DNA of 35,098 nt, from the IMG/VR virus record IMGVR_UViG_3300042199_000161, positions 1-35,098 of that record; one strand, written 5' to 3'. Source of the DNA: a virus (lineage: Duplodnaviria; Caudoviricetes). The number at the start of each line of letters is the position of its first letter. The stretch's first letter is position 1. This document shows, piece by piece, positions 4,684 to 32,766 of this stretch. Below the pieces are notes generated by a model, which made no database searches, was not told where the DNA came from, and worked only from the letters and a program-made list of their open reading frames with translations. The translations under genes were made by a program, and so were the position numbers.

Positions 4684-5739
4684 ATGCACAACGCAGCGCC
4701 AGCATTTGCTCACACGTCAGGCCCCAAAGACGCAAAGATTGCGATTGTGGGCGAGGCATGGGGTGAACAGGAAGCACTTATCGGCAAGCCGTTTCAAGGT
4801 TACAGCGGTCAAGAGTTGACTCGCATGTTGCAAGAGGCTGGCCTTTCCCGACGCGAATGTTTTCTGACAAACGTGCTGGCGCTGCGTCCCCCGAACAATG
4901 ACCTTCAAGCACTCTGCGTGAAAAAAGCAGACTGCGGAGAGGACTATCCCCATCCGCATCTCGGCAAAGTCGGTCAATACCTCGCCCCCGAATATCTTTC
5001 AGAATTGGAGCGCCTCCGTGAAGAATTGGAAGAAGTTCGTCCTAATCTCGTTATCGCTTTGGGGGCTACAGCTTGTTGGGCTTTGCTTGGCACTAACGGT
5101 ATTGGAGCTTTACGCGGAACAGTGGCAACAGGAACTCTTGTTAGCAGCAAAGTCCTCCCAACCTATCACCCAGCGGCGGTCTTGCGTAATTGGGCCTGGA
5201 GACCGATTGCCCTCGCGGATTTAATCAAAGCGAAACGTGAGAGCGCGTATGCTGAAATCAAACGACCGCAGCGTTTCATACTTGTAAACCCTACGATTGC
5301 AGAGTGCATTGAGTGGATCAAACGTCATGTTCGCGCCGAAACCGCCTGCGACATCGAGACAAAATACGGCATGATCGAAATGATAGGGTTTAGTGCAAGT
5401 GCTGAACACGCAATGGTTGTGCCTTTTTGGGATCGCTCGAAAGGCGGAAACTTTTGGCCTTCTGTTGCCGACGAGCGTTCGGCCCGCAATGTCGTGCGAA
5501 GCATTCTGGAAAATCCTTTCGTCACCAAAATCTTCCAGAACGGTCTTTATGACTTGCAATACCTTATGAAAGAAGGTTATCGTCCGCGTTCATGTCTCGA
5601 AGATACGATGCTTTACCACCATGCCCTTTATCCAGAAATGCAAAAAGGGCTGGGCTTCTTAGGCTCCATTTACACTTCCGAACCTGCGTGGAAAACAATG
5701 CGCGGGAAGAAGATCACGGAGATGAAAAAGGATGACTGA
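4684..5739 (+). CDS. Uracil-DNA glycosylase (family 4/SPO1-polymerase type) fused to a partial 3'-5' exonuclease; N-terminal part of a split PolA
   Basis: UDG motifs IVGEAWG.QE...PFQGYSG, TNV...RPPNN, TYHPAAVLR; then ExoI CDIET, ExoII QNGLYD and DTML. No ExoIII before the stop. Confidence 0.85.
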   Translation: MHNAAPAFAHTSGPKDAKIAIVGEAWGEQEALIGKPFQGYSGQELTRMLQEAGLSRRECFLTNVLALRPPNNDLQALCVKKADCGEDYPHPHLGKVGQYLAPEYLSELERLREELEEVRPNLVIALGATACWALLGTNGIGALRGTVATGTLVSSKVLPTYHPAAVLRNWAWRPIALADLIKAKRESAYAEIKRPQRFILVNPTIAECIEWIKRHVRAETACDIETKYGMIEMIGFSASAEHAMVVPFWDRSKGGNFWPSVADERSARNVVRSILENPFVTKIFQNGLYDLQYLMKEGYRPRSCLEDTMLYHHALYPEMQKGLGFLGSIYTSEPAWKTMRGKKITEMKKDD

Positions 5740-5974: not shown

Positions 5975-6182
5975 ACATTCCTTTCTCGAGGCGCTTCTAA
6001 ACACCGCCTCCGGGTTTGTGACTTCACTTCTAACCCAATGGCTGGTGTTTCCATGGTTCAACCTACACCCTTCACTCCAAGAGAACCTCAGTCTAACCGC
6101 AATATTTACCATTGTAAGTATTGTCAGGAGCTACGTTTGGCGCAGGACGTTCAATCACCTGCAAACAAAAGGAATGCTCTAA
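5961..6182 (+). CDS. Small two-TM membrane protein of a common phage family
   Basis: GAGG RBS; MQSRKHSFLEALLN...SIVRSYVWRRTFN with two hydrophobic segments. Confidence 0.7.
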   Translation: MQSRKHSFLEALLNTASGFVTSLLTQWLVFPWFNLHPSLQENLSLTAIFTIVSIVRSYVWRRTFNHLQTKGML

Positions 6183-6295
6183 TGATAACCCTTTTCTGCC
6201 TTTCCTATCTCCCGTTTGGTTATTACATCGTGACAGGAAATGAATATGCGCTTGTGCTGTGGATGGCTTTGCTTGCTTTCGTGGCGGTGCTTTAA
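6182..6295 (+). CDS. 37-aa hydrophobic membrane peptide
   Basis: TAATG coupling at both ends; MITLFCLSYLPFGYYIVTGNEYALVLWMALLAFVAVL. Confidence 0.5.
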   Translation: MITLFCLSYLPFGYYIVTGNEYALVLWMALLAFVAVL

Positions 6296-7776
6296 TGCCG
6301 ATCATTGACACGTCCACGCTGCAAGAAGGCATCGTTCTTCCAGAGAACGAACAAATCTATAACGGCCTTGACTGCTGCATCACGCATGAAGTCTTGGACG
6401 CTATTCGAGCGCTTGGTGCTCCCCCGCGCATTTACAATTTCGCCCGTGCCCTGCAAGCACCTGTCATGGCGATGATGCAGCTAGGCTTCCGCATTGACAA
6501 CTACGAACGTCAAAAAGGCATCGAGGCTCTCAATGTCGAAATCGAACGTCTTACTATTCTGCTCAATCGTTTGTCTAACGCTGTTTGGGACAAACCTCTC
6601 AAAGCCAACTCCCCCAAAATGCTGCAAGAATTTTTCTTCGGCGCAATGGGCATTCCTGAAATCTGGACCTCAAAGAAAGGGGAGCGAAAACTCTCCATGG
6701 ACCGAGAGGCCCTTGAAAAACTCGACAATTATTTTCACGCCAGACCTATTGTTGCAACAATCTTATCTATACGAGATGCCGTCAAACAACTCTCAGTTCT
6801 TAACACCGAAGTCGATGCTGACGGGCGAATGAGGACTTCTTACAATGTCGCAGGCACAGAAACGGGACGCTTCAGCAGTTCAACCAATGCTTTCGGCACT
6901 GGCACAAACTTGCAAAATATCACTTCGTCTTTGCGAAAAATGTTTGTGGCTGACCCCGGATACAAAATCTGCGGGATCGACCTTGAACAAGCAGAGTCCA
7001 GAGAAGTGGGATGGCTTTCGGGCACCATTTGTGGTGACTGGTCTTATCTGGACGCCTGCTATAGTGGCGACCTTCACACTCTTGTTGCAAGGACTGCTTG
7101 GCCCGAACTTGCTTGGACCGATGACCCCAAGCGCGACCGCGCCATTGCAGACACACCCTTCTACCGTCACCTCACCTACCGCGACATGGCGAAGAAACTC
7201 GGCCACGGAAGCAATTATCGCGGATTACCTCCGACCATGGCCCGACATGCCAAGCTCCCCGTTGCAGTCGCAGAACAATTCCAAAAGCGATACTTTGATC
7301 GTTTCGCAGGAATACCAAAGTGGCATAGATGGGTCGCCCAACAACTCCAAACCGCCCACCGCATCATCACTCCGCTCGGACGAGAACGCACGTTCTTCGG
7401 GCGCTCGAACGACGACACGACGTTACGGGAGGCGATTGCGTTTTCACCACAGAGCGCGACGGCGGACAGGCTAAACCTCGTGATGTGGCGCATTTGGTAT
7501 CACATGCCTGAAATACAACTTATCGCCCAAGTCCATGACGCTGTTTATTTCCAGTATCCTGAAAAGCTCGATGAAGTTGAAGTCATAACACAAGCCCTTT
7601 CGTATTTCGATCTCGCGTTTGAACACTCGGGTCACAAACTTGTAGTGCCTGGGGAGGCCAAGGTCGGCTGGAATTGGGGAAACTTTGATCCGCAATCCAA
7701 CCCCGATGGCCTCGCTAAATGGAAAAACAAAAAGGACGAGCGCAAACGAACGCCGCTGCTCTCACAAAAACTCTAA
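6295..7776 (+). CDS. polA: Family A DNA polymerase (ExoIII plus polymerase domain; C-terminal part of the split PolA)
   Basis: YNGLD (ExoIII), TETGRFSS, NLQNI, motif A DLEQAESR, motif B RDMAKKLGHGSNY, motif C QVHDA. Start at the TAATG-coupled ATG 6295. Confidence 0.92.
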   Translation: MPIIDTSTLQEGIVLPENEQIYNGLDCCITHEVLDAIRALGAPPRIYNFARALQAPVMAMMQLGFRIDNYERQKGIEALNVEIERLTILLNRLSNAVWDKPLKANSPKMLQEFFFGAMGIPEIWTSKKGERKLSMDREALEKLDNYFHARPIVATILSIRDAVKQLSVLNTEVDADGRMRTSYNVAGTETGRFSSSTNAFGTGTNLQNITSSLRKMFVADPGYKICGIDLEQAESREVGWLSGTICGDWSYLDACYSGDLHTLVARTAWPELAWTDDPKRDRAIADTPFYRHLTYRDMAKKLGHGSNYRGLPPTMARHAKLPVAVAEQFQKRYFDRFAGIPKWHRWVAQQLQTAHRIITPLGRERTFFGRSNDDTTLREAIAFSPQSATADRLNLVMWRIWYHMPEIQLIAQVHDAVYFQYPEKLDEVEVITQALSYFDLAFEHSGHKLVVPGEAKVGWNWGNFDPQSNPDGLAKWKNKKDERKRTPLLSQKL

Positions 7777-7796
7777 AATATTTTAAGGGGCTCAAG

Positions 7797-8987
7797 GTGG
7801 ATTTCATCGACACTTATGTGGCGTTCACAGACGAACGCCCCTCGCCAGAACTTTTCCGCAAGTGGGCCGCTATCACCACGTTATCCGGCGCTCTCGAAAA
7901 ACGTGTCTGGACCAAGACCAAAGCAGGCCCGCAATACGCAAACCTCTACACAATGCTCGTCGCCCCGCCGGGAGTTGGTAAATCACAAGCCATTAACCCC
8001 TCCGAACAGTTGCTCAAGGCTACGAAGAAGTTTGCGATTGCACCAAACAGCGTCACGGCTGCTTCGTATATTGATGCTCTGACAAACGCCGCAAGGATCA
8101 AACTAAAACCAAACAACTCCGGCACTTTGACCTACCATCACCTTTTTGTGTTCGCCGCAGAGCTAGGCGTCTTTATCAACTCCCACGATCTAAACTTCCT
8201 TTCAATCATAAATGAATTGTTCGACCACAAAGAGTCCTATCGAGAAGAACGCAGACACAGCCTCAAAGAGCCGATTGACATTTCAAATCCCATGACCACG
8301 CTCCTGATTGGCTCCCAGCCAGGATTTCTTGCGACCTTGCTCCCAGAGGCCGCTTGGACAATGGGTTGGACCTCTCGAATGCTCATGGTTTATTCATCCA
8401 CCATGCCAGATGTTGCGCTCTTTGGTGAATACAAAAACATGGACTCTCTGCAAAAGAAACTCGTCGCCAAGTTAAACGACTGCGCGGATTATTATGGTGA
8501 AATGAAATGGGATGCTGCGGCGATTGCGGACATGGAGCGTTGGCGCAAAGACAAATGGGGGCCGATCCCAGACCATCCTAAACTTGCCAACTACGTGCCG
8601 CGCCGGGGGACGATCTTCGCAGTCAAGTTGGCAATGGTTTCCGCTTTGTCGAGGGGCGAGGAACTCGCTATTCGCCTGCAAGATGTCGAACGCGCTCGCG
8701 GTTGGTTGTTAGAGATCGAGGCCCTGATGCCGCAAATCTTCCGCGACATGATTATGCGCTCCGACGACCAAGTGATCGAAGAAACATTCCAATATTTATT
8801 CAGCATGTATATGAAAGCGCGCACACCCATCGCAGGTGCAACAATTTTAAGGTTCTTGTCGCAAAGAACTCCTGCCGAGAAGGCAGAAAAGATTATGTCG
8901 TTGATGGAAAAGTCGGGGATTTTGGAGCGGCAAGCGGGGTCTGAAAATTATGTCCCGCGAGCAAGAGAATTGCATGGGGTGGGATAG
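7797..8987 (+). CDS. P-loop NTPase, DUF3987/YfjI-like (putative replicative helicase)
   Basis: GTG start after AAGGGG; Walker A APPGVGKS; GWTSRML arginine-finger-like motif; follows the polymerase. Confidence 0.65.
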   Translation: MDFIDTYVAFTDERPSPELFRKWAAITTLSGALEKRVWTKTKAGPQYANLYTMLVAPPGVGKSQAINPSEQLLKATKKFAIAPNSVTAASYIDALTNAARIKLKPNNSGTLTYHHLFVFAAELGVFINSHDLNFLSIINELFDHKESYREERRHSLKEPIDISNPMTTLLIGSQPGFLATLLPEAAWTMGWTSRMLMVYSSTMPDVALFGEYKNMDSLQKKLVAKLNDCADYYGEMKWDAAAIADMERWRKDKWGPIPDHPKLANYVPRRGTIFAVKLAMVSALSRGEELAIRLQDVERARGWLLEIEALMPQIFRDMIMRSDDQVIEETFQYLFSMYMKARTPIAGATILRFLSQRTPAEKAEKIMSLMEKSGILERQAGSENYVPRARELHGVG

Positions 8988-8998
8988 ACCCACCCCAT
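8974..8998. terminator. Hairpin at the convergence of the two genome arms
   Basis: ATGGGGTGGG-ataga-CCCACCCCAT, a perfect 10 bp stem; the helicase-like gene's TAG lies in the loop. Confidence 0.65.
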
Positions 8999-9016
8999 AT
9001 TCCCTACAGAGTGGGC

Positions 9017-10129
9017 TTAATACTTCACGCAATATTGAACACCATAGTTTCTCGGACGAGACTCAATTCCACCAGTCGCTTGAATATTCGCAAAGCCTGT
9101 TCCAGAGGTTGCCGGAGTTTGTGTATATCCAGCTCCTCCTTGAAATGTCGGTGTCGCAGATGTGTTTGGAGTTTGGTAAGAATGCGTATGCCCCGCATCT
9201 GTATGTGTATGACTTAGATTTGCAGAGGTTTGATAATCAGCCGAGCCAACAGTCTGAGGTGTTACGGCAACTGCATCAGGCGTTGTAGCACGAGCACCCG
9301 CCGGACCATTCATATTCGAAGCACCTCGAGCAAATACACCACGTAAATCCGGCAACACAACATTACCCGCACTTACGCCCCAAGTTGTCCCAAGCGCCAA
9401 GGTTAATTCGGGGTAGCTTGCCGAACTTTTTGAAGAGCCGTCAGCCGGAAACCATCCATTCGGGCAAGACGCCATCGCAAACATGCGAACTTCTCCCGCA
9501 AACGAATAATTGTTATTGACGATTAGGTGAAACTGCCCCGTAGTCTGCCGATACGTGACGCCGACAACATTGCCAGCAGTAAGTTCTGTGCCGGACAAAA
9601 AGATCGGACCAGCAGGCGTGTCCTTCACAATGGCTGCCGCGCCAATACCATTGATGTTTAAGGTCATCGGGCCGGTATTTGTAAAGCCTGCGACAAAATA
9701 AACAGTTTGCCCGTCAAGCCCTGTAAATGTAGAAGCAGTTAGCGTCTGCACATTCGCAGATCCACCACTAACATTTCCCCATCCCAAGTTTGACGCAGAC
9801 GATGTATCAGACGTGTATTTTGTCCAAACTGTATTTCCTAATTGATCTTTCAAAACCTGGCAATACGCGCCCGAGCCAAACAATGTTGCACGACCGGCAG
9901 CATCCAACACAACAGGATTGGTGTTCAGCACAGTTCCCGCAGAGTCTTGATACGTGTTTTTCAAAACCGTGCAGGTTGGAAAGTTACTGTAAAAGTAAAC
10001 CTTGCCGTTGGCGTAGGGCTTGCCATTCGCGTCGATAAACTGCTGCTGCCCATTCGGCAGCAAAGTCGCGCTCCACAATCCACTCGTGCTCGCAATAAGT
10101 GCCGCGAGGGCTCCTGTTACTTTTTTCAT
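9017..10129 (-). CDS. Tail fibre protein with P22-like virion-binding N-domain and tail-collar domain, preceded by a signal-peptide-like leader
   Basis: LLPNGQQQFIDANGKP...GKVYFY...TYQD...NTNPVVLDAAGRA anchor domain; GEVRMFA...PNGWFPADG...PDLRGVFARG...ESRPRN...YCVKY collar. GGAG RBS and ATGA overlap fix the start. Confidence 0.8.
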   Translation of the reverse strand: MKKVTGALAALIASTSGLWSATLLPNGQQQFIDANGKPYANGKVYFYSNFPTCTVLKNTYQDSAGTVLNTNPVVLDAAGRATLFGSGAYCQVLKDQLGNTVWTKYTSDTSSASNLGWGNVSGGSANVQTLTASTFTGLDGQTVYFVAGFTNTGPMTLNINGIGAAAIVKDTPAGPIFLSGTELTAGNVVGVTYRQTTGQFHLIVNNNYSFAGEVRMFAMASCPNGWFPADGSSKSSASYPELTLALGTTWGVSAGNVVLPDLRGVFARGASNMNGPAGARATTPDAVAVTPQTVGSADYQTSANLSHTHTDAGHTHSYQTPNTSATPTFQGGAGYTQTPATSGTGFANIQATGGIESRPRNYGVQYCVKY

Positions 10130-12480
10130 TTCTTTCTCCGAGATTTATAAGTTTCCGCAGCACTTACCGAGCCCGACACGCCGACAGGTCCAGCAAGCAC
10201 GTTATGGAGTGCAGGGGCTTCGCCTTGCATAATCGCACGGCTGTAATAAGGCTGGGTTAGCATATGATGTTTAGCTGCTTCAAAGCCTTTGGCCCCGCCG
10301 TAACGCATGGCCGCAAGCGCCGCTCCACCGGCAGCCGCAGACCAAGGACTAAAGCCGATTTGAGAAAGAGCCGCCGCCCCTAAGTCACTCATAAATCCAG
10401 CAGCAGCAGGCGCAGCAGCAGCACCGGCAATTTGCACCATCGGATTTTCCCAAAACTTTTGTTTTTGTTGAGGACCAGGAATTATTGGCATACCCTTTTC
10501 ATCTACACTGAACATCAACTTGCCTATCTCTTGCAACTCCTGTTCGGCCCCAGCAGCTTGTCTATTCTCAGCAGCATTTGCAAACTTTACGGGGTCTAAG
10601 ATGCCAGATTCTGTTGCAGCTTCTTCTGCCATTGATGCAGTTTTATACATCCGTCTGGCTTCTCGCCAAGCGTCAGCCTTGCCAGGAATTGTCGCCCCTT
10701 CAAACACCTTATCAGCAATGCGCTGAAGTTGGGTGTTATAAAACTGGTAAAGCGAGTTACTTGTCGGCGGCAGCCCGTGGTTAATCGTGCCATTTTTCTG
10801 CACCAGATCTTGAATTAAATCTCCTGTTAACCCTTTTTGAAACACAGTAGAATCTACATTGGCAATAGTCCTCAGAATTTTATTCTGATCTGCAGGATCA
10901 ATGCCAGATGTAATAACTCGGTGCACCAGCGCATCAATATCTCGCCTAACCTGCCGTCCCAGACCTGAAGTTGTCAGGCTAATCGGAGTGCTTCTGGCAA
11001 TATTACCAATATCCTTTCCGATTACATCAAGTCTGGCATCAATAGCTTTGGGCGTAAATGCTCCTGTATGCCCAAATCGCTCTCCGACAGCCTTGCCAAA
11101 CTCTTTCGCCTGTTTGACGGCAACTTCCGGCGTCAGCAACTTACTTGAAAGCTGCTGCTCGGCAGGCATGTTCGACAACTGCCAAGGCATCAAGGAGATG
11201 TTGTATTTGCCTTGCGCGATTTTTCCGATGTCACGCACAGGTTCTTCGAGGCGAGGAGCCATGGCGGGACCAGCAGCGCCCATCATGTAACGAGCGGCAG
11301 GCTCGGCAAATGCACCCATGCCTGCACCCGTGGCGATCTGTTCGCCAGCCGGGACTTCCGGGTGAACGCCGACATTGAGCGCCGCTTGTGCCGCCCCTTT
11401 GCCCGCGCCGATGGCACCACCACCCACAAGGCGCTCGACCGCACCCACCACCCCCGGCTTTGCGACATACCCACCGCTTGGAAACGGCCCTGCCATGCCC
11501 GGACGATAGGCCGCAAGGCGTTCGACATAGGGAAGGGCCTTCGACACATAGGGAAGCGCCTGTAAGGCTTTGGAACCCAAGAGCGCCGCCCCGGCATAAG
11601 GAGCCGCCGCCGCCAGACCAACACCTTGCGCCACGCCCCCCGCGATTTCCGCCGCAGCACTTCGATACGGATATTCCTGCTCGTAAGCCTTCCGGGCCGC
11701 TTGAACTTGCTGCGTCGTGTAAGGCCCCGTCGCAGCCATTACAGACGGGACCGCGCCCATCGCAACAGCATTCAAAAATTCCTTACCCGCGCCCCACTCA
11801 ACCGGGGGAACAGGCGAAGCCGGAGCGTTGACACTAATTGGCGGAGCCGGATGAGGCACAGTCGCAGGAGTCTCCGGCAACGGTGTCGGCGTCAAACGCT
11901 GCGAGGCACGTTGTTGCAAACGAGCAAAAGCATCTTCTGCCCCCGGCGCACCAGTCGTGACCTCACCCTGCACTTCCGGGTTCAGCCGCTGCGCGGCACG
12001 AGCCTGCAGCCTTTTGAAAAGTTCTTCATCCCCACCAGCAACTTGAACCCCCGGCATGGACCCAGCCTGCTGACCAAGCGCACTCGCCACATATTGTCCA
12101 ACACCCATGTTGATGTCGTGTGCCCCAGCCTTCTGGGCTTGAGCCAAGGGCCTTCCCGAAAACCACACCGACGCAGCATCCTGCAAAGTTCCATATTTGT
12201 GCAGATTGTTAATCATCTGGTTTTCAAACACAGCCTCTTGCGCTTCCGGGCTGTGCAGAAATTCGAAAGGCGTCAGCTTGCGGCCAAGGGCTTGCTCAGT
12301 CCATGACGGAATATTCGCACCCATGACCTGATATTTGCCATAAGCACGATCTGTGGTGCCGCCCTTACGCTTTAGTTCCTCTCCAAGGGCCATATAGTTA
12401 TTACCACTCTCCACTCGCCCGATGCCTTGTTTAAGGGCCTGGAGAGGATTGTAAGAAACATCAAAATTTCTTGCCATCAT
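10126..12480 (-). CDS. Internal virion (ejection) protein with N-terminal lysozyme-like/transglycosylase domain
   Basis: IGRVESGNNY...AYGKYQVM...PEAQEAVF...WFSG; Ala/Gly-rich helical remainder. Start at the ATGA overlap, 12480. Confidence 0.75.
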   Translation of the reverse strand: MMARNFDVSYNPLQALKQGIGRVESGNNYMALGEELKRKGGTTDRAYGKYQVMGANIPSWTEQALGRKLTPFEFLHSPEAQEAVFENQMINNLHKYGTLQDAASVWFSGRPLAQAQKAGAHDINMGVGQYVASALGQQAGSMPGVQVAGGDEELFKRLQARAAQRLNPEVQGEVTTGAPGAEDAFARLQQRASQRLTPTPLPETPATVPHPAPPISVNAPASPVPPVEWGAGKEFLNAVAMGAVPSVMAATGPYTTQQVQAARKAYEQEYPYRSAAAEIAGGVAQGVGLAAAAPYAGAALLGSKALQALPYVSKALPYVERLAAYRPGMAGPFPSGGYVAKPGVVGAVERLVGGGAIGAGKGAAQAALNVGVHPEVPAGEQIATGAGMGAFAEPAARYMMGAAGPAMAPRLEEPVRDIGKIAQGKYNISLMPWQLSNMPAEQQLSSKLLTPEVAVKQAKEFGKAVGERFGHTGAFTPKAIDARLDVIGKDIGNIARSTPISLTTSGLGRQVRRDIDALVHRVITSGIDPADQNKILRTIANVDSTVFQKGLTGDLIQDLVQKNGTINHGLPPTSNSLYQFYNTQLQRIADKVFEGATIPGKADAWREARRMYKTASMAEEAATESGILDPVKFANAAENRQAAGAEQELQEIGKLMFSVDEKGMPIIPGPQQKQKFWENPMVQIAGAAAAPAAAGFMSDLGAAALSQIGFSPWSAAAGGAALAAMRYGGAKGFEAAKHHMLTQPYYSRAIMQGEAPALHNVLAGPVGVSGSVSAAETYKSRRKK

Positions 12481-15080: not shown

Positions 15081-16496
15081 CTACGTCTCCATCTTCTCAA
15101 TATCAATGAACGCCCCGTTCAGCGCCGTCGCCGCTGCGGCAGTCCACGAAAGTTCAAAAACCCGATCTCGAGCAAAGCCCAGTCTATTCCAACTCGGGAT
15201 AGTTTTGTATGCACCAGTCTTGCCCAGCGTTTGCTGCACTCCATTCCCAAAACTCACGCCACGATCATCACTCCAGCGTAAGTTCAAAAAAGGATCAGAC
15301 TCGGGGTCAAGGTCTGTGCCGACTTCAATATCAGCTATAAATTGTTTATAGCTTATACGATCCAGACTGCTCACAAGATGAGGGAACGACCGAAGTTTTA
15401 CAATCGGCTGCCCATCATCGGTATAGGTTTGCAAATTCCAGTCGTAAAGTTTTCCGTTTTGCCAATCACCGCACACAGTCTTGCCGTAAGCAAATGCTAC
15501 GCAATTCGCACGATGTCGGCGCAGATCGCCATTATTATCCAGATAAGCCCGCTCATGCCACAGTTGAGTTGACAAATCATAAACCCAAGTCCTGTCGGCA
15601 GTTGGGAAAGTCAACACATAGAAAATATGGGTGCCTTGCTGATAGCAGAACCCAATCGCATCGTTGATTTCTTCATATCTGCCGATGTCATCAGAAATAG
15701 CAGGTGTGGAGATAACTTCAGCCTTATAGGCCGTCCCCATCATTACCAACGCTTGCCCGTTATTGTCTTGGGACAGGAAGAAAATATTTAAACCCCACTT
15801 TGCCAGCGAACGCATTGCAGCAATACCATGCTGTAAGAAAACACCGGGGATCGGAGAGAACGGAAACGGAAAACCACCGACATTACTCCAGACTTCCGTA
15901 GTTCTTCGGCCAAAACTCCAAATTTCCTTATGCACCACGTCGATAATTTGCAACTGATCAGCATCACCAGACATAGTTGCGACAGACAATGCGGTGTAAG
16001 TTGTGGCGTTTGAGTCACTCGCTTGAATATTGCCATTTTGAGTGCTCGATACCAAAAACGTATCAATATATCTAATTTGATTGCCACCTACAAAGTTTGC
16101 AGGATTAAAAACTGCAAACGCATGAGTTACTAAATCCACGCTCCAGCCATTTGTCGATCCATCTAAAATAATGAGCGAGAATTTATTATCATACATTGAC
16201 ACCATTCCGTTTTGTGTAGCAATGGTGCCAAGAGCAGTTAAAGCAAAAACATCATTCACGAAATAAACAACGTCTCCGATGACCGCAAATAATTCACCAT
16301 TACTCGCGGTGTAAAGCTGACGAACTTCGGCAACAATTCCTTGCGCCAAAGTCGTCAGCCCAGGAGTGCAGTAATGCGTGTAAGGAACTTCCGCATCTTT
16401 CGTATTAAGTTCGGGATACAGATTGATGCAACGCTGGGCATTTGCAATGACCGAACGCGCTTCATATGCACCTTGAACTAACTGGATCTGCGGCAT
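15081..16496 (-). CDS. Tail hub/packaged DNA stabilisation protein (P22 gp10-like)
   Basis: QRCINLYPE...TPGL, TWVYDLSTQLWHER, LRWSDDRG..F, WNRLGFARDRVFEL. Confidence 0.85.
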   Translation of the reverse strand: MPQIQLVQGAYEARSVIANAQRCINLYPELNTKDAEVPYTHYCTPGLTTLAQGIVAEVRQLYTASNGELFAVIGDVVYFVNDVFALTALGTIATQNGMVSMYDNKFSLIILDGSTNGWSVDLVTHAFAVFNPANFVGGNQIRYIDTFLVSSTQNGNIQASDSNATTYTALSVATMSGDADQLQIIDVVHKEIWSFGRRTTEVWSNVGGFPFPFSPIPGVFLQHGIAAMRSLAKWGLNIFFLSQDNNGQALVMMGTAYKAEVISTPAISDDIGRYEEINDAIGFCYQQGTHIFYVLTFPTADRTWVYDLSTQLWHERAYLDNNGDLRRHRANCVAFAYGKTVCGDWQNGKLYDWNLQTYTDDGQPIVKLRSFPHLVSSLDRISYKQFIADIEVGTDLDPESDPFLNLRWSDDRGVSFGNGVQQTLGKTGAYKTIPSWNRLGFARDRVFELSWTAAAATALNGAFIDIEKMET

Positions 16497-16512: not shown

Positions 16513-16908
16513 TTAGGCAGTTAGCAGCGAGAACCAAACGCCATTCGTCGCGGCGACAAACAACACAGTTTTAGCTGACGCAACGCTAATGCCAGTTGCA
16601 CCAGCCGTGCCGTTGATCGTGTCCGAACCGTTCGCAAACACCTGCACCGCGTCCGCCGCATCAGCGTTACGCAGCCAAACAACGCTGCCCGCTACCGCTT
16701 TGGGGAGAACAACGCTGTCAGCCGCCGTAGCGACAGTCGTAACTGTGTTCGCACCGAGCACCAAAATAGGTGTAGAAGAATTGCGCGCACCGCCAGCCAA
16801 AGCAGTGATACCGTAATTCGTCTGCAACATCGGAGTAGCAAGGATCGTATTAAGCGCGTCATCGTCCGCAAGACGCTGGCCGGGCTGGAGTCTCTGGGGA
16901 GTTGCCAT
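16513..16908 (-). CDS. Small virion protein; stand-alone copy of a module also found in two fibre genes
   Basis: GQRLAD...LN...ALAGG...SVVLPKAVAG...VFANGSDTING is similar to the tailspike N-terminus. Confidence 0.7.
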   Translation of the reverse strand: MATPQRLQPGQRLADDDALNTILATPMLQTNYGITALAGGARNSSTPILVLGANTVTTVATAADSVVLPKAVAGSVVWLRNADAADAVQVFANGSDTINGTAGATGISVASAKTVLFVAATNGVWFSLLTA

Positions 16909-16912
16909 TGTA

Positions 16913-17641
16913 TTACCTCGTCTGGTCGGAGTAAATGTTGTAAACGCCCGGACGGACCAGATTATCCGGCATTACAAGGGACGGGATTTGCGCGTTTGCA
17001 GAACGTAGTGTCTGCATCGCATCTGCCGCAAGGCCACTATATCCAATGTCCTCTGGCATACGATAAGCAGCGCGCAAGCGCACCACCATGTTGTAATGCA
17101 GCGCGGCCAGATATTCTGGGGGAAAGTCGAACGTGGATGTTAAGTCCGCAAATTCACTCAGCACTTCTTTCAGAATAATATGCACTTCGTAAAGATTTGC
17201 TTGCGGGATCGGCCACGGATAAATCTTGCCCAGAGGATAGGCACTATCATAAAAGATACACTGAGAAAACGATACCAAACTTTTCAGTGTAATTCTCGCA
17301 TAATCCTCATAAGAAAAGAGGATCTGCAAAGGATAGTCCACAGATTGTGTGCCCGTGGACCCCGGCAACATTCTGAAAAAAGCACTTTCGAGTTTATCCG
17401 GTCGCCACGAGACATTTATATCACCGCCGGGGCCGACCGTGTAACTCTGCGCCCCCGTGCTAACTACGCTCTTATCCACAAGATGCCACACAAGCCAGCG
17501 TTTAACACGCCACTGTGCAATCATCATATTCATGCGGGTGAGCGCATCGTTATAATCTTCGGGGAGCAATGACTGCCCGACACCGAGAATACCAGCGTCC
17601 TTAAACGCAAGGGTTATGATGTCTAAGGCAGTCGTTGCCAT
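16913..17641 (-). CDS. Head-tail adaptor (P22 gp4-like)
   Basis: TTALDIITLAFKDAGILGVGQ...DALTRMNMMIAQW, FPPEY..AL.YN; position after the coat gene. Confidence 0.8.
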   Translation of the reverse strand: MATTALDIITLAFKDAGILGVGQSLLPEDYNDALTRMNMMIAQWRVKRWLVWHLVDKSVVSTGAQSYTVGPGGDINVSWRPDKLESAFFRMLPGSTGTQSVDYPLQILFSYEDYARITLKSLVSFSQCIFYDSAYPLGKIYPWPIPQANLYEVHIILKEVLSEFADLTSTFDFPPEYLAALHYNMVVRLRAAYRMPEDIGYSGLAADAMQTLRSANAQIPSLVMPDNLVRPGVYNIYSDQTR

Positions 17642-18018: not shown

Positions 18019-19230
18019 TTAGATGATGTCCGCGACGACCACGGCCCATTCCGGGCGAACCCAGAGATAACCGTAAAGAACGTCCAGACGAGTGATGAAC
18101 TGATCCGACTTAATGTCGAAGCCCGTCACCATGCGGAGCGACACGCCGTCCATGCGCTCACGCGCAACTTCCTGCATGTTCTTCGGCATTTCCAGATCGG
18201 CAGTCGCCATCGTCACCGCGTCGGGGATAAACGCAATGTTCTTGCGATAAACCGCGCCCGTCAGCGTCAGGCTGTTAATGGCAGCGCCGTTCGCAGGCGA
18301 AGCCGTAACCGTCTGATACTGGACGTTCGAACCACCAACCGGCGGAACGATGGCGGGGTAAATGCCAAGGACACCGCCTGCATAGCTCGTAACAACGAAC
18401 TGCTGCAGTTCACCAGTCGAAACCTTGGTGATGCGGTTGACAGCGTTCACGCCAGCAAACGTGATGATGTCGCCAACGGTGAACGAGGACGCGCCGATAG
18501 TGACGTTGATGCTCGTGCCCGTCTGGTTCGCACCGTTGACGGTCGGAGAAACGCCGACAACATACGTGCCAGTCGTGTGCTTGATAACGGTCTGATCTTC
18601 GAACCAGTCGAAGCCAATCGCGTTATAAACTTCACCGCTGCGATACTGCTCGGAGATTTCCGTAGCCGGGTTCAACAGACCAGACAGCGACTGCACCGTG
18701 CGGGCCATCGAAACCGGGTCCAGAATGAACTTGCGGTTATCGGTCGGGGCCGAACGCAGCGAGAGCAGGGCTTTCGCCTGCAGCCACGTATCGAGGGTCG
18801 GACGGAGCAGATTGCCAGCCGCGTCGAAGTTACCGACAAGGTTGGAAACGCCACCTTCAACACCAGACATAACGTCCGCAGCAACCGCGCCCACGAGGTT
18901 GTTCACCGCCGGAGCAAGAATGCGCTTCGAGTAATCGTCCAAGCTCATGGTGCGCTCGGCAGAGTTGAACGAAACGTCCACGCCCTTCTGGGTGGCGAGC
19001 GTCAGCGTGGTGCTGGTTTCCGCCGTGTCCTGAATCTGCGCGACCGGACCCGTGCGAACGGTATAGTCGTTCGGCAGGCGGATACGCAGGCTCTGGCCGA
19101 TCTTCGCGCCAGTAATGGCGAACTGGTCGTCATACTGCGTGTCGATATGCTGGAGGAACGAGTTGGTGTTGACCCAGAGGCGAACGGCCTCACGGGTAAT
19201 CATCTTAATTGTAAGAATTTCATTGGACAT
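18019..19230 (-). CDS. Major capsid protein (P22 coat protein gp5 family)
   Basis: MSNEILT..MITREA, KIGQSLRIRLP, and C-terminal RLDVLYGY..VRPEWA; 403 aa. Confidence 0.92.
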   Translation of the reverse strand: MSNEILTIKMITREAVRLWVNTNSFLQHIDTQYDDQFAITGAKIGQSLRIRLPNDYTVRTGPVAQIQDTAETSTTLTLATQKGVDVSFNSAERTMSLDDYSKRILAPAVNNLVGAVAADVMSGVEGGVSNLVGNFDAAGNLLRPTLDTWLQAKALLSLRSAPTDNRKFILDPVSMARTVQSLSGLLNPATEISEQYRSGEVYNAIGFDWFEDQTVIKHTTGTYVVGVSPTVNGANQTGTSINVTIGASSFTVGDIITFAGVNAVNRITKVSTGELQQFVVTSYAGGVLGIYPAIVPPVGGSNVQYQTVTASPANGAAINSLTLTGAVYRKNIAFIPDAVTMATADLEMPKNMQEVARERMDGVSLRMVTGFDIKSDQFITRLDVLYGYLWVRPEWAVVVADII

Positions 19231-19389
19231 TTTACTGACCTCTGGTTAAGCGCGGACGCGCTGCTACTGACATCAAAAAGCATGGGGGAGTCCCCTGCGT
19301 TTCGACGGTGCCCGCGTCCGTCACTTTGTCGGGCCAGCCCAGACCGTTTGCCCCACGGCCAGAGAGGGGGGATCGTAAGGTGATCCCGC
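19231..19389 (-). promoter_or_regulatory. Structured intergenic leader upstream of the coat gene
   Basis: Several nested inverted repeats; the outer stem pairs with the AGAGG RBS (see findings). Confidence 0.45.
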
Positions 19390-20175
19390 CTACCTTCTAC
19401 GACGCGATACACTCGCGTTTCGTAATCTCGCCCATTCTTCCATAGAAATGTTAGGATCGTCAAGGGTGGCCGGAGCCGCACCAACGCCCTGCACTTTCGG
19501 GGTAATGGGAGGCGGCGCAGAAGAAACACGCTTGGGCGAATTAAGCCCCTGTGCAATCTTCGCCACCGCAACTGCCTGCCTTGTCGGAGGCAGCATGGCA
19601 ATCCGCGCCGCTTCATCCGGGTTCTTCGCCAGATGATAAAGCACGTCCTGCGGATTTCCAGTTTCAATCGCAGCTTCCGTGAGGGTCGTCGGAATACCCC
19701 CTAAAATCTGCGCCATGTTGTTTAACTGCGGAGCCCAGTCGCCGTATTTACCAAGGCCCTCATTCCAGATTTTATCAGTAGTGTCTTTCCACTGTTGCTG
19801 CTTGGCAAGTTCCTGGGCCTGCCGGTGAACTTCAAGCTGTATCTGGCGAGGATCATACGGGACTTCGGCAGCGGGCTGCTGCGGAGCGTATTGCTGCTGC
19901 TGATAGTATTCAGCCTGCTGCAAGCGTTCTTCAAGTTCCCGCTTCTGTCGGGTAAGCTGGCCGATGCGATCCAAAAGGCCCTGCGGGGGTTTTGCAGAGC
20001 TGTCAGCAGTTATGGACTCGTCGTTACCGAGCGCCTCACCCGCAACTGCTGTATCTTGAGCCGCATCGGCCACAACGGGGGCTTCGACAGCGGCTGGTGC
20101 TTCTGGCGTTGCCGCGCCGCTTTCCCCGTCACTTTGCCGCATCGCGGCTTCCCAGAATTTCTGCATGGTGTTCAT
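19390..20175 (-). CDS. Scaffolding protein
   Basis: Acidic N-terminus, RIGQLTRQKRE coiled coil, YHLAKNPDEAARIA, SSAPPPITP, SMEEWARLRN; directly upstream of the coat gene. Confidence 0.82.
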   Translation of the reverse strand: MNTMQKFWEAAMRQSDGESGAATPEAPAAVEAPVVADAAQDTAVAGEALGNDESITADSSAKPPQGLLDRIGQLTRQKRELEERLQQAEYYQQQQYAPQQPAAEVPYDPRQIQLEVHRQAQELAKQQQWKDTTDKIWNEGLGKYGDWAPQLNNMAQILGGIPTTLTEAAIETGNPQDVLYHLAKNPDEAARIAMLPPTRQAVAVAKIAQGLNSPKRVSSAPPPITPKVQGVGAAPATLDDPNISMEEWARLRNASVSRRRR

Positions 20176-26266: not shown

Positions 26267-26440
26267 TCAATTCCCCCCAAGCTGCTTGCTGGCTTTCAGC
26301 GATTTCAATTCTTTCTGCTGCGTATTCGGGGCAATGCCGCCCTTATTCGCTTTCGCAGACATCAACTTTTTCATGTCATGGTGAACAGACATGATGTGGC
26401 TTTCCCGATCAGGGCGTTTATGGTCGCAGCACTTTTTCAT
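26267..26440 (-). CDS. Small basic protein (57 aa, MKKCCDHKRPDRESH...)
   Basis: Read manually; ATGA overlap with the upstream gene, GAGG upstream, fills the gap exactly. Confidence 0.55.
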   Translation of the reverse strand: MKKCCDHKRPDRESHIMSVHHDMKKLMSAKANKGGIAPNTQQKELKSLKASKQLGGN

Positions 26441-26670
26441 TCGTCATTCCTCGTCCTGTCCCACAACTTAAACCCGATCTGCAATGACAGGTAGATGCAG
26501 CCGAGGATTGGCGCAAACACCGCCGCTATGTCCGACACAGGTTTAATCTGTTGCAGCCATAGCGGAGATGAAATCATTGCCGCCGAAACAAGCCCTCCAA
26601 CCTTTTCACTTGTTGTCGTAAATATTAACCCAAGACTATCTGTCGCATGATGGTCATGTGATAGCGGCAT
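26437..26670 (-). CDS. Putative holin-like membrane protein (77 aa)
   Basis: Two hydrophobic segments and a charged C-terminus; lies downstream of the tailspike. Confidence 0.45.
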   Translation of the reverse strand: MPLSHDHHATDSLGLIFTTTSEKVGGLVSAAMISSPLWLQQIKPVSDIAAVFAPILGCIYLSLQIGFKLWDRTRNDE

Positions 26671-26687
26671 TATTTTGACTTTCTTAT

Positions 26688-30358: not shown

Positions 30359-31504
30359 TTACGGATGAGCCGCAACGTAGGCTTCGAACTTCGCATTCAG
30401 GTCCTGCAAAGCCTTCGTCAACGCAGCAATCACCGATCTATCATAAAATCCATACATACCATCCGAGCCCATCGGGGCTGCAGACGGGATAATCGGCGCA
30501 GCTTCATTCGCAAAAAAGCCGATTTCGATCGCTGCCTTTTCTCCACGAAGCGCAATATCGTCCAGCCATTTATATGCCACAGGGCGAAGCTGCAGAACTT
30601 CTTCTAAGCCTGGAATTTTAGCATCCAAAACTTCCTGCTTCAGTCTCGCATCTGATGCCGCCGACAACTTGCCATTCGCATCAGCATTGACTGCTCGCGA
30701 ACCTGCGCCCGCCAAATTAACAACAGTCAGCACACCAGTATTATCGAAATATCCACGGGTGTTTTGCTGCCCATCCGAGAATACAATATTATTGCTTCCA
30801 GTTGCACTAATCGGCGCAGCCGATCCTGTAGCCGAGCCGATAATTACGTTATAATTACCCGTTGTGATCGCACTACCTGCACCCACAGACGCATACGCAC
30901 CAATACAGGTGTTATTTCCACCGGACGTTACGCCCGACATCGCTCCATAACCGATTGCAGTATTGTAACTGCCGGTAATACCTGCAGGAGTGCCGTTGAT
31001 TGCAGAAATACCGATGCCGATATTGCCCGCGCCGGTCGTCATCCAAAAACCAGATCCATACCCGATGCAGTTATTCGAACTGCCAGTCGAGGTCTGGTTG
31101 AGCACATTCGCACCGATAGCGACGTTGTTTACTGAGCCATTCGTGTTCGCAAGTCCACCGTCGCCAATGACCACGTTATACTGGCCAGTCGTTACGTTTG
31201 TCAGTGCATTTCGACCGATGCCTACGTTATACTGGCCAGTAGAAATGTTTGTAAGGGCTCCCGCACCGAACGCCACGTTCGACGTAAGACTGCTATTGCC
31301 CAGACCAACTCGCGCTCCGTTCACCGTGATGTCGGTAGTGAAAACCGGACTCGCGGTCAGCGCAACAGTCGTGCCTGTCCCCGACACGCTATACGAGACA
31401 AGATTTCCACTCGCATCTGTTGAGACAACCTTTGTCGCCCCCATCGCAGAGGGCAATCCTGGGATCAGATATGCAGGCTGTGAAGGGTTGTTGTTAAGTC
31501 CCAT
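30359..31504 (-). CDS. Fibre protein with ~14-aa N-x-x-I-G beta-roll repeats and C-terminal peptidase S74 intramolecular chaperone
   Basis: Repeats such as TGQYNVGIG, TGQYNVVIG, TGSYNTAIG; SDARLK...LRPVAYKW...GFFANE...LTKALQDL. Confidence 0.82.
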   Translation of the reverse strand: MGLNNNPSQPAYLIPGLPSAMGATKVVSTDASGNLVSYSVSGTGTTVALTASPVFTTDITVNGARVGLGNSSLTSNVAFGAGALTNISTGQYNVGIGRNALTNVTTGQYNVVIGDGGLANTNGSVNNVAIGANVLNQTSTGSSNNCIGYGSGFWMTTGAGNIGIGISAINGTPAGITGSYNTAIGYGAMSGVTSGGNNTCIGAYASVGAGSAITTGNYNVIIGSATGSAAPISATGSNNIVFSDGQQNTRGYFDNTGVLTVVNLAGAGSRAVNADANGKLSAASDARLKQEVLDAKIPGLEEVLQLRPVAYKWLDDIALRGEKAAIEIGFFANEAAPIIPSAAPMGSDGMYGFYDRSVIAALTKALQDLNAKFEAYVAAHP

Positions 31505-32247
31505 TACATTTCTCCCGCAACAATCTTATGCCCGGTCGTCGCCGCATTCACACTAATCGCCTGTGTCGAAATCGGCCCAGCGTCACTCTCATACGAGCCG
31601 CAAGCCAAAATCTCAATCGACGTGCCGTTGTTCACACCAGCCGCGCCCGTGAAGCTGATGTAAATGCTTTCCACAGCTGCGATGCCCTGTCCCGTTGCGG
31701 TGCAAGGATTTTGGATGTAGAATTTACGACGAGAGGCGTTTGACGCCATCAAGTCTTGTGCCGTGCCGCCGGTCGTAAGTGCCAAATTTCGGCTTGTGTA
31801 TGTGCCCGCCAGCGGGTTCAACGAACCAATCGTGTTCGTGCCAGCTGGCAACGCAGCATTTACCTGCACACCATTCGTGGTGCCCGGAGTTGTCTGGTCA
31901 ATACCAACTCTACCGATAATGTTCGTGCCAGCCGGAAGCGAACCGCTGATGGCCGTCCGCAGATTACCCGACAGATCGAGGCTAAAAGGATTGTTCGTCC
32001 CATCAACATAAGTCGGCGCAGCGGTAGTCGCCCGACCATAAGTCAGCACAATCGGGCTTCCCGACAGCGTTACAGGCAAATTCCCCGATGCATCTGGCGC
32101 AGCGCAACGAAACGGGCTATTCGGATTACACACCGCAACGCTATACTGGATCGTCCCGCTCGCGCCGCCCGGAGTGCTTAACTGGGCGTCCGCAGGAACA
32201 ATTAAAGCCCCAAACATCAGGGCCGTCGATGCAAGGAGCTTTTTCAT
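31504..32247 (-). CDS. Signal-peptide-bearing, fibre/decoration-like protein
   Basis: GGAG RBS then MKKLLASTALMFGALIVPADA-Q; two LPAGTN.IG repeats; C-terminal SNASRRKFYIQNP beta domain. Confidence 0.7.
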   Translation of the reverse strand: MKKLLASTALMFGALIVPADAQLSTPGGASGTIQYSVAVCNPNSPFRCAAPDASGNLPVTLSGSPIVLTYGRATTAAPTYVDGTNNPFSLDLSGNLRTAISGSLPAGTNIIGRVGIDQTTPGTTNGVQVNAALPAGTNTIGSLNPLAGTYTSRNLALTTGGTAQDLMASNASRRKFYIQNPCTATGQGIAAVESIYISFTGAAGVNNGTSIEILACGSYESDAGPISTQAISVNAATTGHKIVAGEM

Positions 32248-32304: not shown

Positions 32305-32766
32305 TTAGTTATACGCCCAAGCGTAGGTCGTCGCGCCAGCGGTATTCGTGCAGATAACCTGACGAGTAACAGCGCCCGACGCGCCAACCGCAGAACCATA
32401 CGTGCCGGTCGCATAAGCGGTGCCGTCCGTAACAGCCGCAACCGCACCGTTAAGCGCAGCAGCGCAGGTCGGCAGCGCCGCAATCGTCGAAGTCGGCAGC
32501 TTGATATACGTCAGAACGCTTGAGCCCGAAAGCACGTAAGCGCGCAACTGCGCCGTGGTGATAACTTCGGTCTGCGGCTGAATGCCATACGACAGCATCG
32601 TGTCAGCCGGAATCTGCTCCACACCCGTCAGTGGGAGCGTAACAGCATTTCCAGAGGACGGCGAAGCCGTGGCGAGCGGATAACCCGGAAACTGACCCTG
32701 TGCAAAAGCGGCACTTACACCCACAAGCGCAAGCAGACCGCCAAAAAGAGCAACTTTTTTCATCAT
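32305..32766 (-). CDS. Signal-peptide-bearing small protein (virion decoration-like)
   Basis: (M)MKKVALFGGLLALVGVSAAFA-Q; LTGVEQIPADT; TIAALPTC...GAVAAVTDG module seen in fibres. Confidence 0.7.
   Translation of the reverse strand: MMKKVALFGGLLALVGVSAAFAQGQFPGYPLATASPSSGNAVTLPLTGVEQIPADTMLSYGIQPQTEVITTAQLRAYVLSGSSVLTYIKLPTSTIAALPTCAAALNGAVAAVTDGTAYATGTYGSAVGASGAVTRQVICTNTAGATTYAWAYN

What the first reader, a model, noticed from the sequence alone, without database searches (positions are those of the whole stretch)
10067..10129. A recognisable tail fibre carries a Sec-type signal peptide
Seen: the start is fixed by a GGAG RBS and an ATGA overlap, and the protein begins MKKVTGALAALIASTSGLWSA (basic N-region, hydrophobic core, small residues), directly followed by TLLPNGQQQFIDANGKP. 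From recall, related P22-like fibres begin at that LLPNG segment. The protein has exactly 4 Cys: two in the anchor domain and two at the ends of the collar domain. Established: tailed-phage virions assemble in the cytoplasm and fibres normally lack export signals. Inference: this fibre is exported, possibly disulfide-bonded in the periplasm, and either joins virions at lysis or acts as a free receptor-blocking decoy.
Basis: partly seen in the sequence, partly recalled or inferred. Interest (0 to 1): 0.82.

Follow-up and report, generated by a model that had tools for sequence, protein, structure and literature searches.

The report
Phage tail fibre with export signal
A freshwater short-tailed phage and its relatives put a predicted bacterial export signal and paired cysteines on the one fibre that carries the usual tail-docking domain, so the fibre likely folds outside the cytoplasm and would clip onto the virus particle only as the cell bursts, a route I found described for no tailed phage.

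Summary
Observation confirmed. ORF 9017-10129(-) is a 370-aa fibre: 20-aa leader, P22/Pam1-type head-binding (tail-docking) domain, beta domain, T4 gp12-type collar and tip. The leader behaves like a Sec/SPI signal: 119 of 120 close homologues keep the n-h-c pattern while its sequence drifts. Among 150 representatives under 50% identity, the domain starts within 5 residues of Met (113) or behind 19 or more (36), never behind 10-18. Cysteine pairs track the leader (docking domain 38/50 vs 0/58; even counts 25:3 vs 43:59). It is the only such domain found in six near-complete leader-bearing genomes. Best reading (0.58): export, cleavage after Ser20, periplasmic disulfides, docking at lysis. Export, cleavage and docking are untested; SignalP was unavailable. 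Against: the leader is weak, a possible internal TTG start persists in the clade (29/31), leaderless spikes also exist, and WceF is an exported non-virion protein with this domain. This scan found the same phenomenon before in many other genomes, including this domain family; ten literature searches found no description. Cultured Cellulophaga phi10:1 and phi18:3 (leader-bearing, MS/MS-annotated virion proteins) and Acetobacter phiAX1 make it testable.

The parts
10136..10139 (-). Shine-Dalgarno GGAG, 6 nt before the ATG; inside the end of the upstream gene (ATGA overlap at 10126-10129)
   Evidence: an SD-like site precedes the leader ATG in 31 of 31 clade members
10070..10129 (-). Predicted Sec/SPI signal peptide, residues 1-20 (KK n-region, uncharged core, L at -3, S at -1)
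   Evidence: separate helix 2-13 in the model; pN/pS 0.355
10058..10063 (-). Codons 23-24 (TTG CTG) with a GGAG upstream: possible internal start, unproven
9800..10069 (-). P22/Sf6/Pam1/Pan3-type tailspike head-binding (tail-docking) domain, residues 21-110, with C53 (9971-9973) and C90 (9860-9862)
   Evidence: Cys co-occurrence
9515..9793 (-). Second beta domain, residues about 113-205, like a Pseudomonas phage Pa193 fibre domain
   Evidence: 9b45_2, Z 9.2, rmsd 2.7, 91 aligned
9332..9496 (-). Phage tail collar domain PF07484, residues 212-266, with C222 (9464-9466)
9017..9331 (-). T4 gp12-like tip with HxH motifs at 307 and 314 and C367 (9029-9031); stop codon
   Evidence: low pLDDT over 269-362 in the monomer model
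8973..8999 (-). Terminator-like 11-pair hairpin after the fibre gene, the last gene of the late strand
   Evidence: 2 found, 2.2 expected in shuffles: consensus match only
15081..16496 (-). Head closure Hc3 (P22 gp10-like hub), leaderless; inferred docking partner
   Evidence: phrog_578, E 1e-96
16913..17641 (-). Head-tail adaptor Ad3 (P22 gp4-like), leaderless; inferred docking partner
31504..32247 (-). Second late-strand gene with a signal-like leader, 247 aa, 4 Cys, function unknown
32305..32766 (-). Third late-strand gene with a signal-like leader, 153 aa, 2 Cys; homologues in G001, G005, G007 also carry leaders

Best explanation
The gene encodes a tail fibre with a P22-type docking domain and a T4 gp12-type collar and tip, and its first 20 residues are a predicted Sec signal peptide, so the fibre is likely exported, likely cleaved after Ser20, likely disulfide-bonded (C53-C90, C222-C367) in the periplasm, and would dock on the finished tail hub when lysis mixes the compartments. 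Shown: domain anatomy, gene slot, leader pattern across homologues, Cys co-occurrence, one docking domain found per genome. Inferred: translocation, cleavage site, disulfide bonds, trimerisation in the periplasm, docking and its timing. Cleavage would give the same N-terminus (ATLLP) as leaderless relatives have after Met removal. Tailspike addition is the last, cell-free-capable step of P22 assembly, so this part is the one that can be made in another compartment.
For: Leader pattern: of 120 listed homologues 119 have a 17-27 aa leader; -1 is G/S/A in all 119, -3 is L or A in 118 of 120, all 119 have a basic and none an acidic residue in the first six, 1 of 119 has a charge in the core; median identity to the window is 53% for the leader and 80% for the domain (that query included the leader). 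Leader-free profile against 50%-identity representatives, best 150 of 28,995: 113 start within 5 residues of Met, 1 at 9, 36 at 19 or more, none at 10-18; 34 of the 36 pass my signal rule and the other 2 failed only a Met rule. Cys parity in those: even>0/odd/zero 25/3/6 with leader vs 43/59/11 without, Fisher p 9e-6. Docking domain with 2 or more Cys: 38 of 50 leader-bearing vs 0 of 58 leaderless, four different Cys sets; 5/7 vs 0/16 after 60% clustering, p 6e-4. Collar C222+C367 in 108 of 108 leader-bearing collar proteins; leaderless ones have V/I or A/I. Fold: Pam1 Z 9.3, P22 Z 8.7; TM 0.69-0.75 to Pam1/Pan3. One match per record in 12 leader-bearing records, 6 of them at least 90% complete. 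Docking domain 74% vs tip 34% median identity, 17 loci. In complete G007 all five accessory late genes I read as possible appendages carry leaders. Cellulophaga phi10:1 gp091-094 and phi18:3 gp085-087 have such leaders and are annotated as MS/MS virion proteins. P22 heads bind tailspike in vitro as the last step (10.1101/2021.09.20.461090, passages).
Against: No export, cleavage or virion data exist for this phage. The window's own leader is at the weak end: best 8-mer hydropathy 2.36 is inside the range of 8 exported E. coli proteins (2.25-3.16), but the best 12-mer 1.74 is below it (1.99-2.72); my rule missed the fibre leaders of G002, G003, G007 and G008 and misplaced the window's cleavage site. 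A start-type codon sits at Leu23 or Leu24 in 29 of 31 clade members, 15 of 29 with an SD-like site. The window and G001, G002, G003, G005 also encode leaderless spike-like proteins on another anchor (window 26688-29762, 10 Cys), so virions may have another receptor-binding protein. In the representative set the docking-domain Cys pair alone is not significant (2/34 vs 0/113, p 0.052). An E34 tailspike with 43 extra N-terminal residues still bound P22 heads, so cleavage is not forced. WceF is an exported bacterial protein with this domain and no virion role (PMC7949094). Disulfides occur in tails of ordinary phages (PMC13576161, search listing only). Homologues are related, so counts overstate independence; the number of leader origins is unresolved.
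Confidence: 0.58

Rival explanations
1. Exported but never on the virion: a periplasmic or released fibre that blocks receptors or excludes superinfecting phages, while leaderless spikes on another anchor do the adsorbing.
For: Leaderless spike-like proteins with a different N-terminal anchor exist in the window and in G001, G002, G003, G005. WceF (Tat-exported, P22-like head domain) shows the domain can persist off-virion.
Against: The gene holds the tailspike slot after the ejection genes beside intact gp4/gp10-like genes; no second docking domain was found in 12 records; the domain is under stronger purifying selection (pN/pS 0.152) and is kept while tips swap; in G007 I found no long leaderless appendage on the late strand.
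Confidence: 0.12
2. Dual start: an internal TTG/GTG/ATG at Leu23 or Leu24 makes a leaderless cytoplasmic form that goes on the virion, and the exported form does something else.
For: 29 of 31 clade members have a start-type codon at one of the two positions, the highest of 28 site pairs compared; TTG is 27% of Leu codons; 15 of 29 have an SD-like site, the window included.
Against: The next site pair reaches 27 of 31 and the rows are related, so this is a few events; the other 14 of 29 lack such an SD-like site; other leader lineages show 8 of 19, 2 with an SD; the product would be 2-3 residues shorter than natural leaderless starts; it does not explain the Cys pairs.
Confidence: 0.12
3. The leader is a Sec-targeted but uncleaved tether (signal-anchor or SAR-like, concept recalled) that holds the fibre on the periplasmic face of the inner membrane until lysis releases it; docking then follows with the leader attached.
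For: The clade's leader is weakly hydrophobic, rich in G/A/S/T, with L rather than A at -3; N-terminal extensions are tolerated on a P22-type head.
Against: -1 is small in 119 of 119 and falls exactly at the natural N-terminus; distant lineages have textbook AxA sites at the same point.
Confidence: 0.1
4. Not a targeting signal: a cytoplasmic N-terminal helix that packs on the hub or portal, with disulfides forming by air oxidation after lysis.
For: Within the closest clade the leader sequence is fairly conserved (53% median) and under purifying selection; the model gives a helix at 2-13.
Against: Unrelated leader sequences replace each other on domains 70-86% identical (14 of 119); the leader matches nothing in solved tail complexes, whose chains begin at about residue 19-20; length is bimodal and Cys parity follows it.
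Confidence: 0.06

Closest known systems
Tailspike head-binding domains of P22 gp9, Sf6 gp14, cyanophage Pam1 (7EEQ) and Pan3 (9VYG)
   Same: Same fold and detectable sequence homology; same gene slot and gp4/gp10-like hub; docks laterally on the hub (PMC9728967, passages).
   Different: Those chains begin at the domain, with no leader; P22 tailspike has no disulfides in the native state (PMC3357383, passages); their body is a beta-helix, here a collar fibre.
T4 gp12 short tail fibre collar and receptor-binding tip (1OCY, 1PDI)
   Same: PF07484 collar, HxH motifs and C-terminal strand.
   Different: gp12 has non-Cys residues at the positions of C222 and C367, no P22-type anchor and, by recall, no leader.
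Leaderless fibres/spikes of cultured relatives: Rhodoferax P26218 gp26, Pseudomonas PAE2, Xanthomonas PBR31 gp34, Vibrio VvAW1 gp40
   Same: Same docking domain, same slot.
   Different: Met directly before the domain, no Cys in it.
Cellulophaga phi10:1 gp091-094 and phi18:3 gp085-087
   Same: Signal-like leaders on proteins that GenBank annotates as virion proteins by MS/MS.
   Different: Bacteroidota phages, few Cys, no homology to this fibre tested; I read the record notes only, not the proteomics paper, and cleavage is not stated.
Pantoea WceF (PMC7949094) and Bdellovibrio MAT fibres (PMC10769870)
   Same: Exported trimeric phage-like spikes or fibres; WceF has a P22-like head domain behind a signal; MATs have a signal peptide (one passage).
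   Different: Bacterial chromosomal proteins, not virion parts; WceF uses Tat and has a beta-helix.
Filamentous phage pIII (recalled, no call)
   Same: Sec-exported, disulfide-bonded receptor-binding protein that joins the virion outside the cytoplasm.
   Different: Membrane-anchored and added during extrusion of a non-lytic ssDNA phage, not onto a cytoplasmic tailed particle.

Membership tests
Sec/SPI signal peptide | Basic n-region | tested here: met
   KK at 2-3; 119 of 119 full leaders
Sec/SPI signal peptide | Uncharged hydrophobic core | tested here: met
   8-mer hydropathy 2.36 within the range of 8 exported E. coli proteins, 12-mer just below it; 1 of 119 charged
Sec/SPI signal peptide | Small residue at -1, neutral at -3 | tested here: met
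   S20 and L18; G/S/A in 119 of 119, L/A in 118 of 120. The -3/-1 rule itself is recalled.
Sec/SPI signal peptide | SignalP-type call; real translocation and cleavage | not testable with these tools
   No SignalP on hand; needs fusion assay or N-terminomics
Lipoprotein (SPII) or Tat signal | Lipobox Cys at +1 or twin-Arg motif | tested here: not met
   +1 is A or G in 120 of 120; no twin-Arg motif in the window leader or in 34 leaders
P22-type tailspike head-binding domain | Fold and homology | tested here: met
   Z 9.3, rmsd 3.7, 90 aligned to 7eeq; Z 8.7, rmsd 2.5, 84 aligned to 2vnl; profile E 4e-10 to 7eeq
P22-type tailspike head-binding domain | Genome encodes gp4-like adaptor, gp10-like hub, P22 portal and coat; gene follows the ejection genes | tested here: met
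P22-type tailspike head-binding domain | Trimer bound to the tail hub of the virion | not testable with these tools
   Needs virions or purified parts
P22 gp9 tailspike proper | Beta-helix endoglycosidase body | tested here: not met
   Body is a beta domain, collar and gp12-like tip
T4 gp12-type collar fibre | PF07484 collar, HxH tip, C-terminal strand | tested here: met
   57.5 bits vs cut-off 24; E 2e-10 to 1ocy; HxH at 307 and 314
Periplasmic disulfide-bonded protein | Cys occur in co-varying pairs | tested here: met
Periplasmic disulfide-bonded protein | Paired Cys within bonding distance, oxidised in vivo | not testable with these tools
   Model coordinates are not returned
WceF-like exported bacterial tailspike | Tat signal, beta-helix, host EPS cluster | tested here: not met
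   No twin-Arg, no beta-helix, lies in a phage virion operon

The most novel reading that the evidence does not exclude
Tailed phages have a second assembly compartment: a widespread group sends its tail-docking fibres and other appendages through Sec, lets the host periplasm fold and disulfide-bond them, and finishes the virion only when lysis mixes periplasm and cytoplasm, so progeny are unarmed until release.
Probability: 0.55. Interest if true: 0.92.

Novelty: new variant of a known kind. Interest (0 to 1): 0.78.

Why it matters
Tailed-phage particles are held to be built wholly in the cytoplasm. A docking fibre that is exported means the last assembly step happens across a membrane, at or after lysis. 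That would change how burst, infectivity timing and receptor-binding protein folding are understood, would explain disulfide-rich appendages, and means such proteins need periplasmic expression and are easily annotated as secreted host proteins. Leaders appear on about a quarter of the top 150 representatives of this domain, so this is not a one-off. The protein's parts are all known kinds, hence 'new variant'; the route would be categorically new for tailed phages if docking of the processed form is shown, and cultured phages exist to test it.

Tried and rejected
Complex prediction of three docking domains with the Hc3 hub gave no answer (score 0.06, mark 0.32) and is not used either way. Cys-Cys distances could not be read from the two models. 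Trees: the 92-column domain tree needs 6 changes and the hub tree 5, but starred branches force only 1, so single versus repeated origin is open; the domain tree held two mislabelled rows, L078 and L079; the window's clade of 16 hub rows is all leader-bearing (support 100). Host: not found. The only close GTDB hit is a leaderless copy in a Beijerinckiaceae MAG; 18 of 401 genomes of that order matched and all copies read were leaderless. No cultured phage with a leader on this domain among 33 records (N-termini read for 5). Rows left out: 6 loci with an insertion in the domain, domains under 80 aa and 4 unclear rows; 4 rows were relabelled by eye; 3 of 150 left out. My signal rule is crude and also flags genes in leaderless-fibre genomes (G011 2, G012 0, G013 2, G014 7). 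Atlas, Pfam and PHROG searches named neither of the two other leader-bearing genes; the 131-aa anchor family had no PDB match. RNA run X17 gave two short contigs only, no expression claim. My recollection that the RcGTA head spike has a signal peptide was not borne out in the passages shown. Passages in PMC3556154, PMC12633290, PMC9206674, PMC5723332, PMC12048535, PMC10975493, PMC10820202, PMC13184272 and 10.64898/2026.03.17.712343 mention signal peptides only for lysis or other proteins, or not at all.

Full report
Setting. The window is a 35-kb fragment (63% complete) of a freshwater phage with P22-like portal, coat, adaptor Ad3, hub Hc3 and ejection genes on the minus strand. The last gene of that strand, 9017-10129, encodes the 370-aa protein in question.

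Observation. The start, GGAG, ATGA overlap, leader and four Cys are as described. Contigs of three public runs carry the leader region unchanged, two of them possibly this DNA's source.

Anatomy. The model has an isolated helix at 2-13 and then beta domains. Residues 25-110 match the tailspike head-binding domain of Pam1 (Z 9.3), P22 (Z 8.7, 8.4), Sf6 (8.2) and Pan3; the domain alone gives TM 0.69-0.75 to Pam1 and Pan3 and a profile E of 4e-10 to Pam1. In Sf6 this domain attaches the spike laterally to the tail hub (PMC9728967, passages). Residues 115-209 resemble a Pa193 fibre domain (Z 9.2), and 212-370 are a T4 gp12-type collar and tip. The solved chains begin at about residue 19-20 of this protein, so the leader is an addition.

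Is the leader a signal peptide? Of the 120 listed homologues (235 found), 119 have a 17-27 aa leader with a basic start, an uncharged core and G/S/A at -1; one has an internal deletion. Leaders drift faster than the domain (53% vs 80% median identity), and in 14 of 119 the leader is at most 40% identical while the domain is at least 70% identical. That search included the leader, so I repeated the test with a leader-free domain profile on representatives under 50% identity: in the best 150 of 28,995, 113 start within five residues of Met, 36 behind 19 or more residues, one at 9 and none at 10-18; 34 of the 36 pass my rule and most end in AxA-like sites right before ATLLP or ASLLP. Cultured relatives are leaderless and start at that point. 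The leader is translated and constrained (pN/pS 0.355 vs 0.152 for the domain, 94 related pairs). The window's own leader is weak but plausible against 8 exported and 14 cytoplasmic E. coli proteins (their status partly from annotation, partly recalled). SignalP was not available.

Cysteines. C53 and C90 come and go together. Among unique domains from loci, 38 of 50 leader-bearing and 0 of 58 leaderless have two or more Cys, in four different sets (53/90, 30/80, 43/96, 56/71/88/107); after 60% clustering 5 of 7 vs 0 of 16. C222 and C367 are both present in 108 of 108 leader-bearing collar proteins, while leaderless docking-plus-collar fibres, three types in my set, have V/I or A/I. In the representatives, mature chains have even Cys counts 25:3 with a leader and 43:59 without (p 9e-6), although the pair inside the docking domain alone is not significant there (2/34 vs 0/113). 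This is the signature of folding in an oxidising compartment; bonds were not measured.

Virion part or decoy? The gene sits in the tailspike slot in both classes. The profile finds one docking domain per record in 12 leader-bearing records, six at least 90% complete; a far-diverged copy could be missed. Over 17 loci the docking domain (74%) follows the hub (80%, Spearman 0.71) while tips swap (34%; lengths 342-553; pairs not independent). In complete G007 the five accessory late genes I read as possible appendages all carry leaders and I found no long leaderless one on that strand. Cultured Cellulophaga phi10:1 gp091-094 and phi18:3 gp085-087 have such leaders and GenBank notes of MS/MS detection in virions; I followed this lead from earlier scan notes and read only the records. 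In P22 the tailspike is added last and binds heads in vitro (10.1101/2021.09.20.461090, passages).

Results against. The window and four relatives also encode leaderless, partly Cys-rich spikes on a different anchor. WceF is an exported non-virion protein with this head domain (PMC7949094, passages and section 4). A 43-residue N-terminal extension did not stop E34 tailspike binding P22 heads. A start-type codon lies at Leu23 or Leu24 in 29 of 31 clade members, half with an SD-like site, though not in other leader lineages (8 of 19) and only slightly above the next site pair. My signal rule is crude.

Mechanism. Shown: anatomy, slot, leader pattern, Cys pairing pattern, single copy. Inferred: Sec export, cleavage at S20|A21, two disulfides, periplasmic trimer, docking on the gp4/gp10-like hub when lysis opens the inner membrane. 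A relative, G001, has an endolysin and holin- and spanin-like genes (the last two by inspection). I put this at 0.58, decoy-only 0.12, dual start 0.12, uncleaved tether 0.10, no targeting 0.06. Export in some form is about 0.9.

What is known. The protein works like a P22-type docked receptor-binding fibre and passes the domain tests; it is not a P22 beta-helix tailspike, a lipoprotein, a Tat substrate or a WceF. Ten searches of the open library and passages of 15 papers showed no account of Sec-exported virion fibres in tailed phages; subscription papers and all supplements were not seen, and virion proteomics tables there could bear on this. The scan itself has noted the phenomenon in at least 528 genomes by word match, 49 with this domain's words, none on this genome or sequence; these are unchecked notes and not counted as support.

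Verdict. Real, widespread, surprising and testable in cultured phages; the decisive steps are experimental. Interest 0.78; new variant of a known kind of protein, with a route that would be new for tailed phages.

Noticed in passing
window 31504-32247 and 32305-32766 (-): Two more late-strand genes with signal-like leaders and even Cys counts (4 and 2); no family named; the second has leader-bearing homologues in G001, G005 and G007.
   Followed up: partly
window 16513-16908, 26688-29762 and 34328-35059 (-): A 131-aa protein between adaptor and hub genes whose domain also forms the N-terminus of leaderless spike-like proteins here and in relatives: a second, unnamed anchor family with no PDB match.
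   Followed up: partly
L259 17120-18085 and about 18089-20014 (Acetobacter phage phiAX1): Two genes between adaptor and hub carry signal-like leaders; the annotated start of gene 450 misses an upstream in-frame ATG that adds the leader. No docking domain of this family among the 16 genes tested.
   Followed up: partly
L041 about 6025-8030 (Pseudomonas phage PAE2): The leaderless tailspike-like ORF (about 668 aa) is not annotated; two opposite-strand ORFs are annotated instead.
   Followed up: no
G014 (L234 9250-13694, L235 12555-15194): Leaderless docking fibre but several other long genes with leaders, one with a beta-helix match: export and the docking domain are not always on the same gene.
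   Followed up: partly
L096, L099, L101, L110, L122, L176, L177: Docking domains interrupted by an inserted repeat-like beta segment; N-termini not resolved, left out of counts.
   Followed up: no
L109, L111, L113, L121, L186: Two tandem leaderless genes, each with the docking domain, about 1.35 kb apart.
   Followed up: no
window 4684-5739 and 6259-7776 (+): Two separate ORFs match consecutive parts of one DNA polymerase family (phrog_17), with small ORFs between them; same layout in G001.
   Followed up: no
window 26437-26688: The endolysin, holin-like and spanin-like genes that G001 has next to this gene are not at this place in the window; the window is incomplete.
   Followed up: no
G001 L202 14590-16848: A 752-aa methyltransferase + glycosyltransferase + TPR protein in the late region beside the spike gene.
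   Followed up: no
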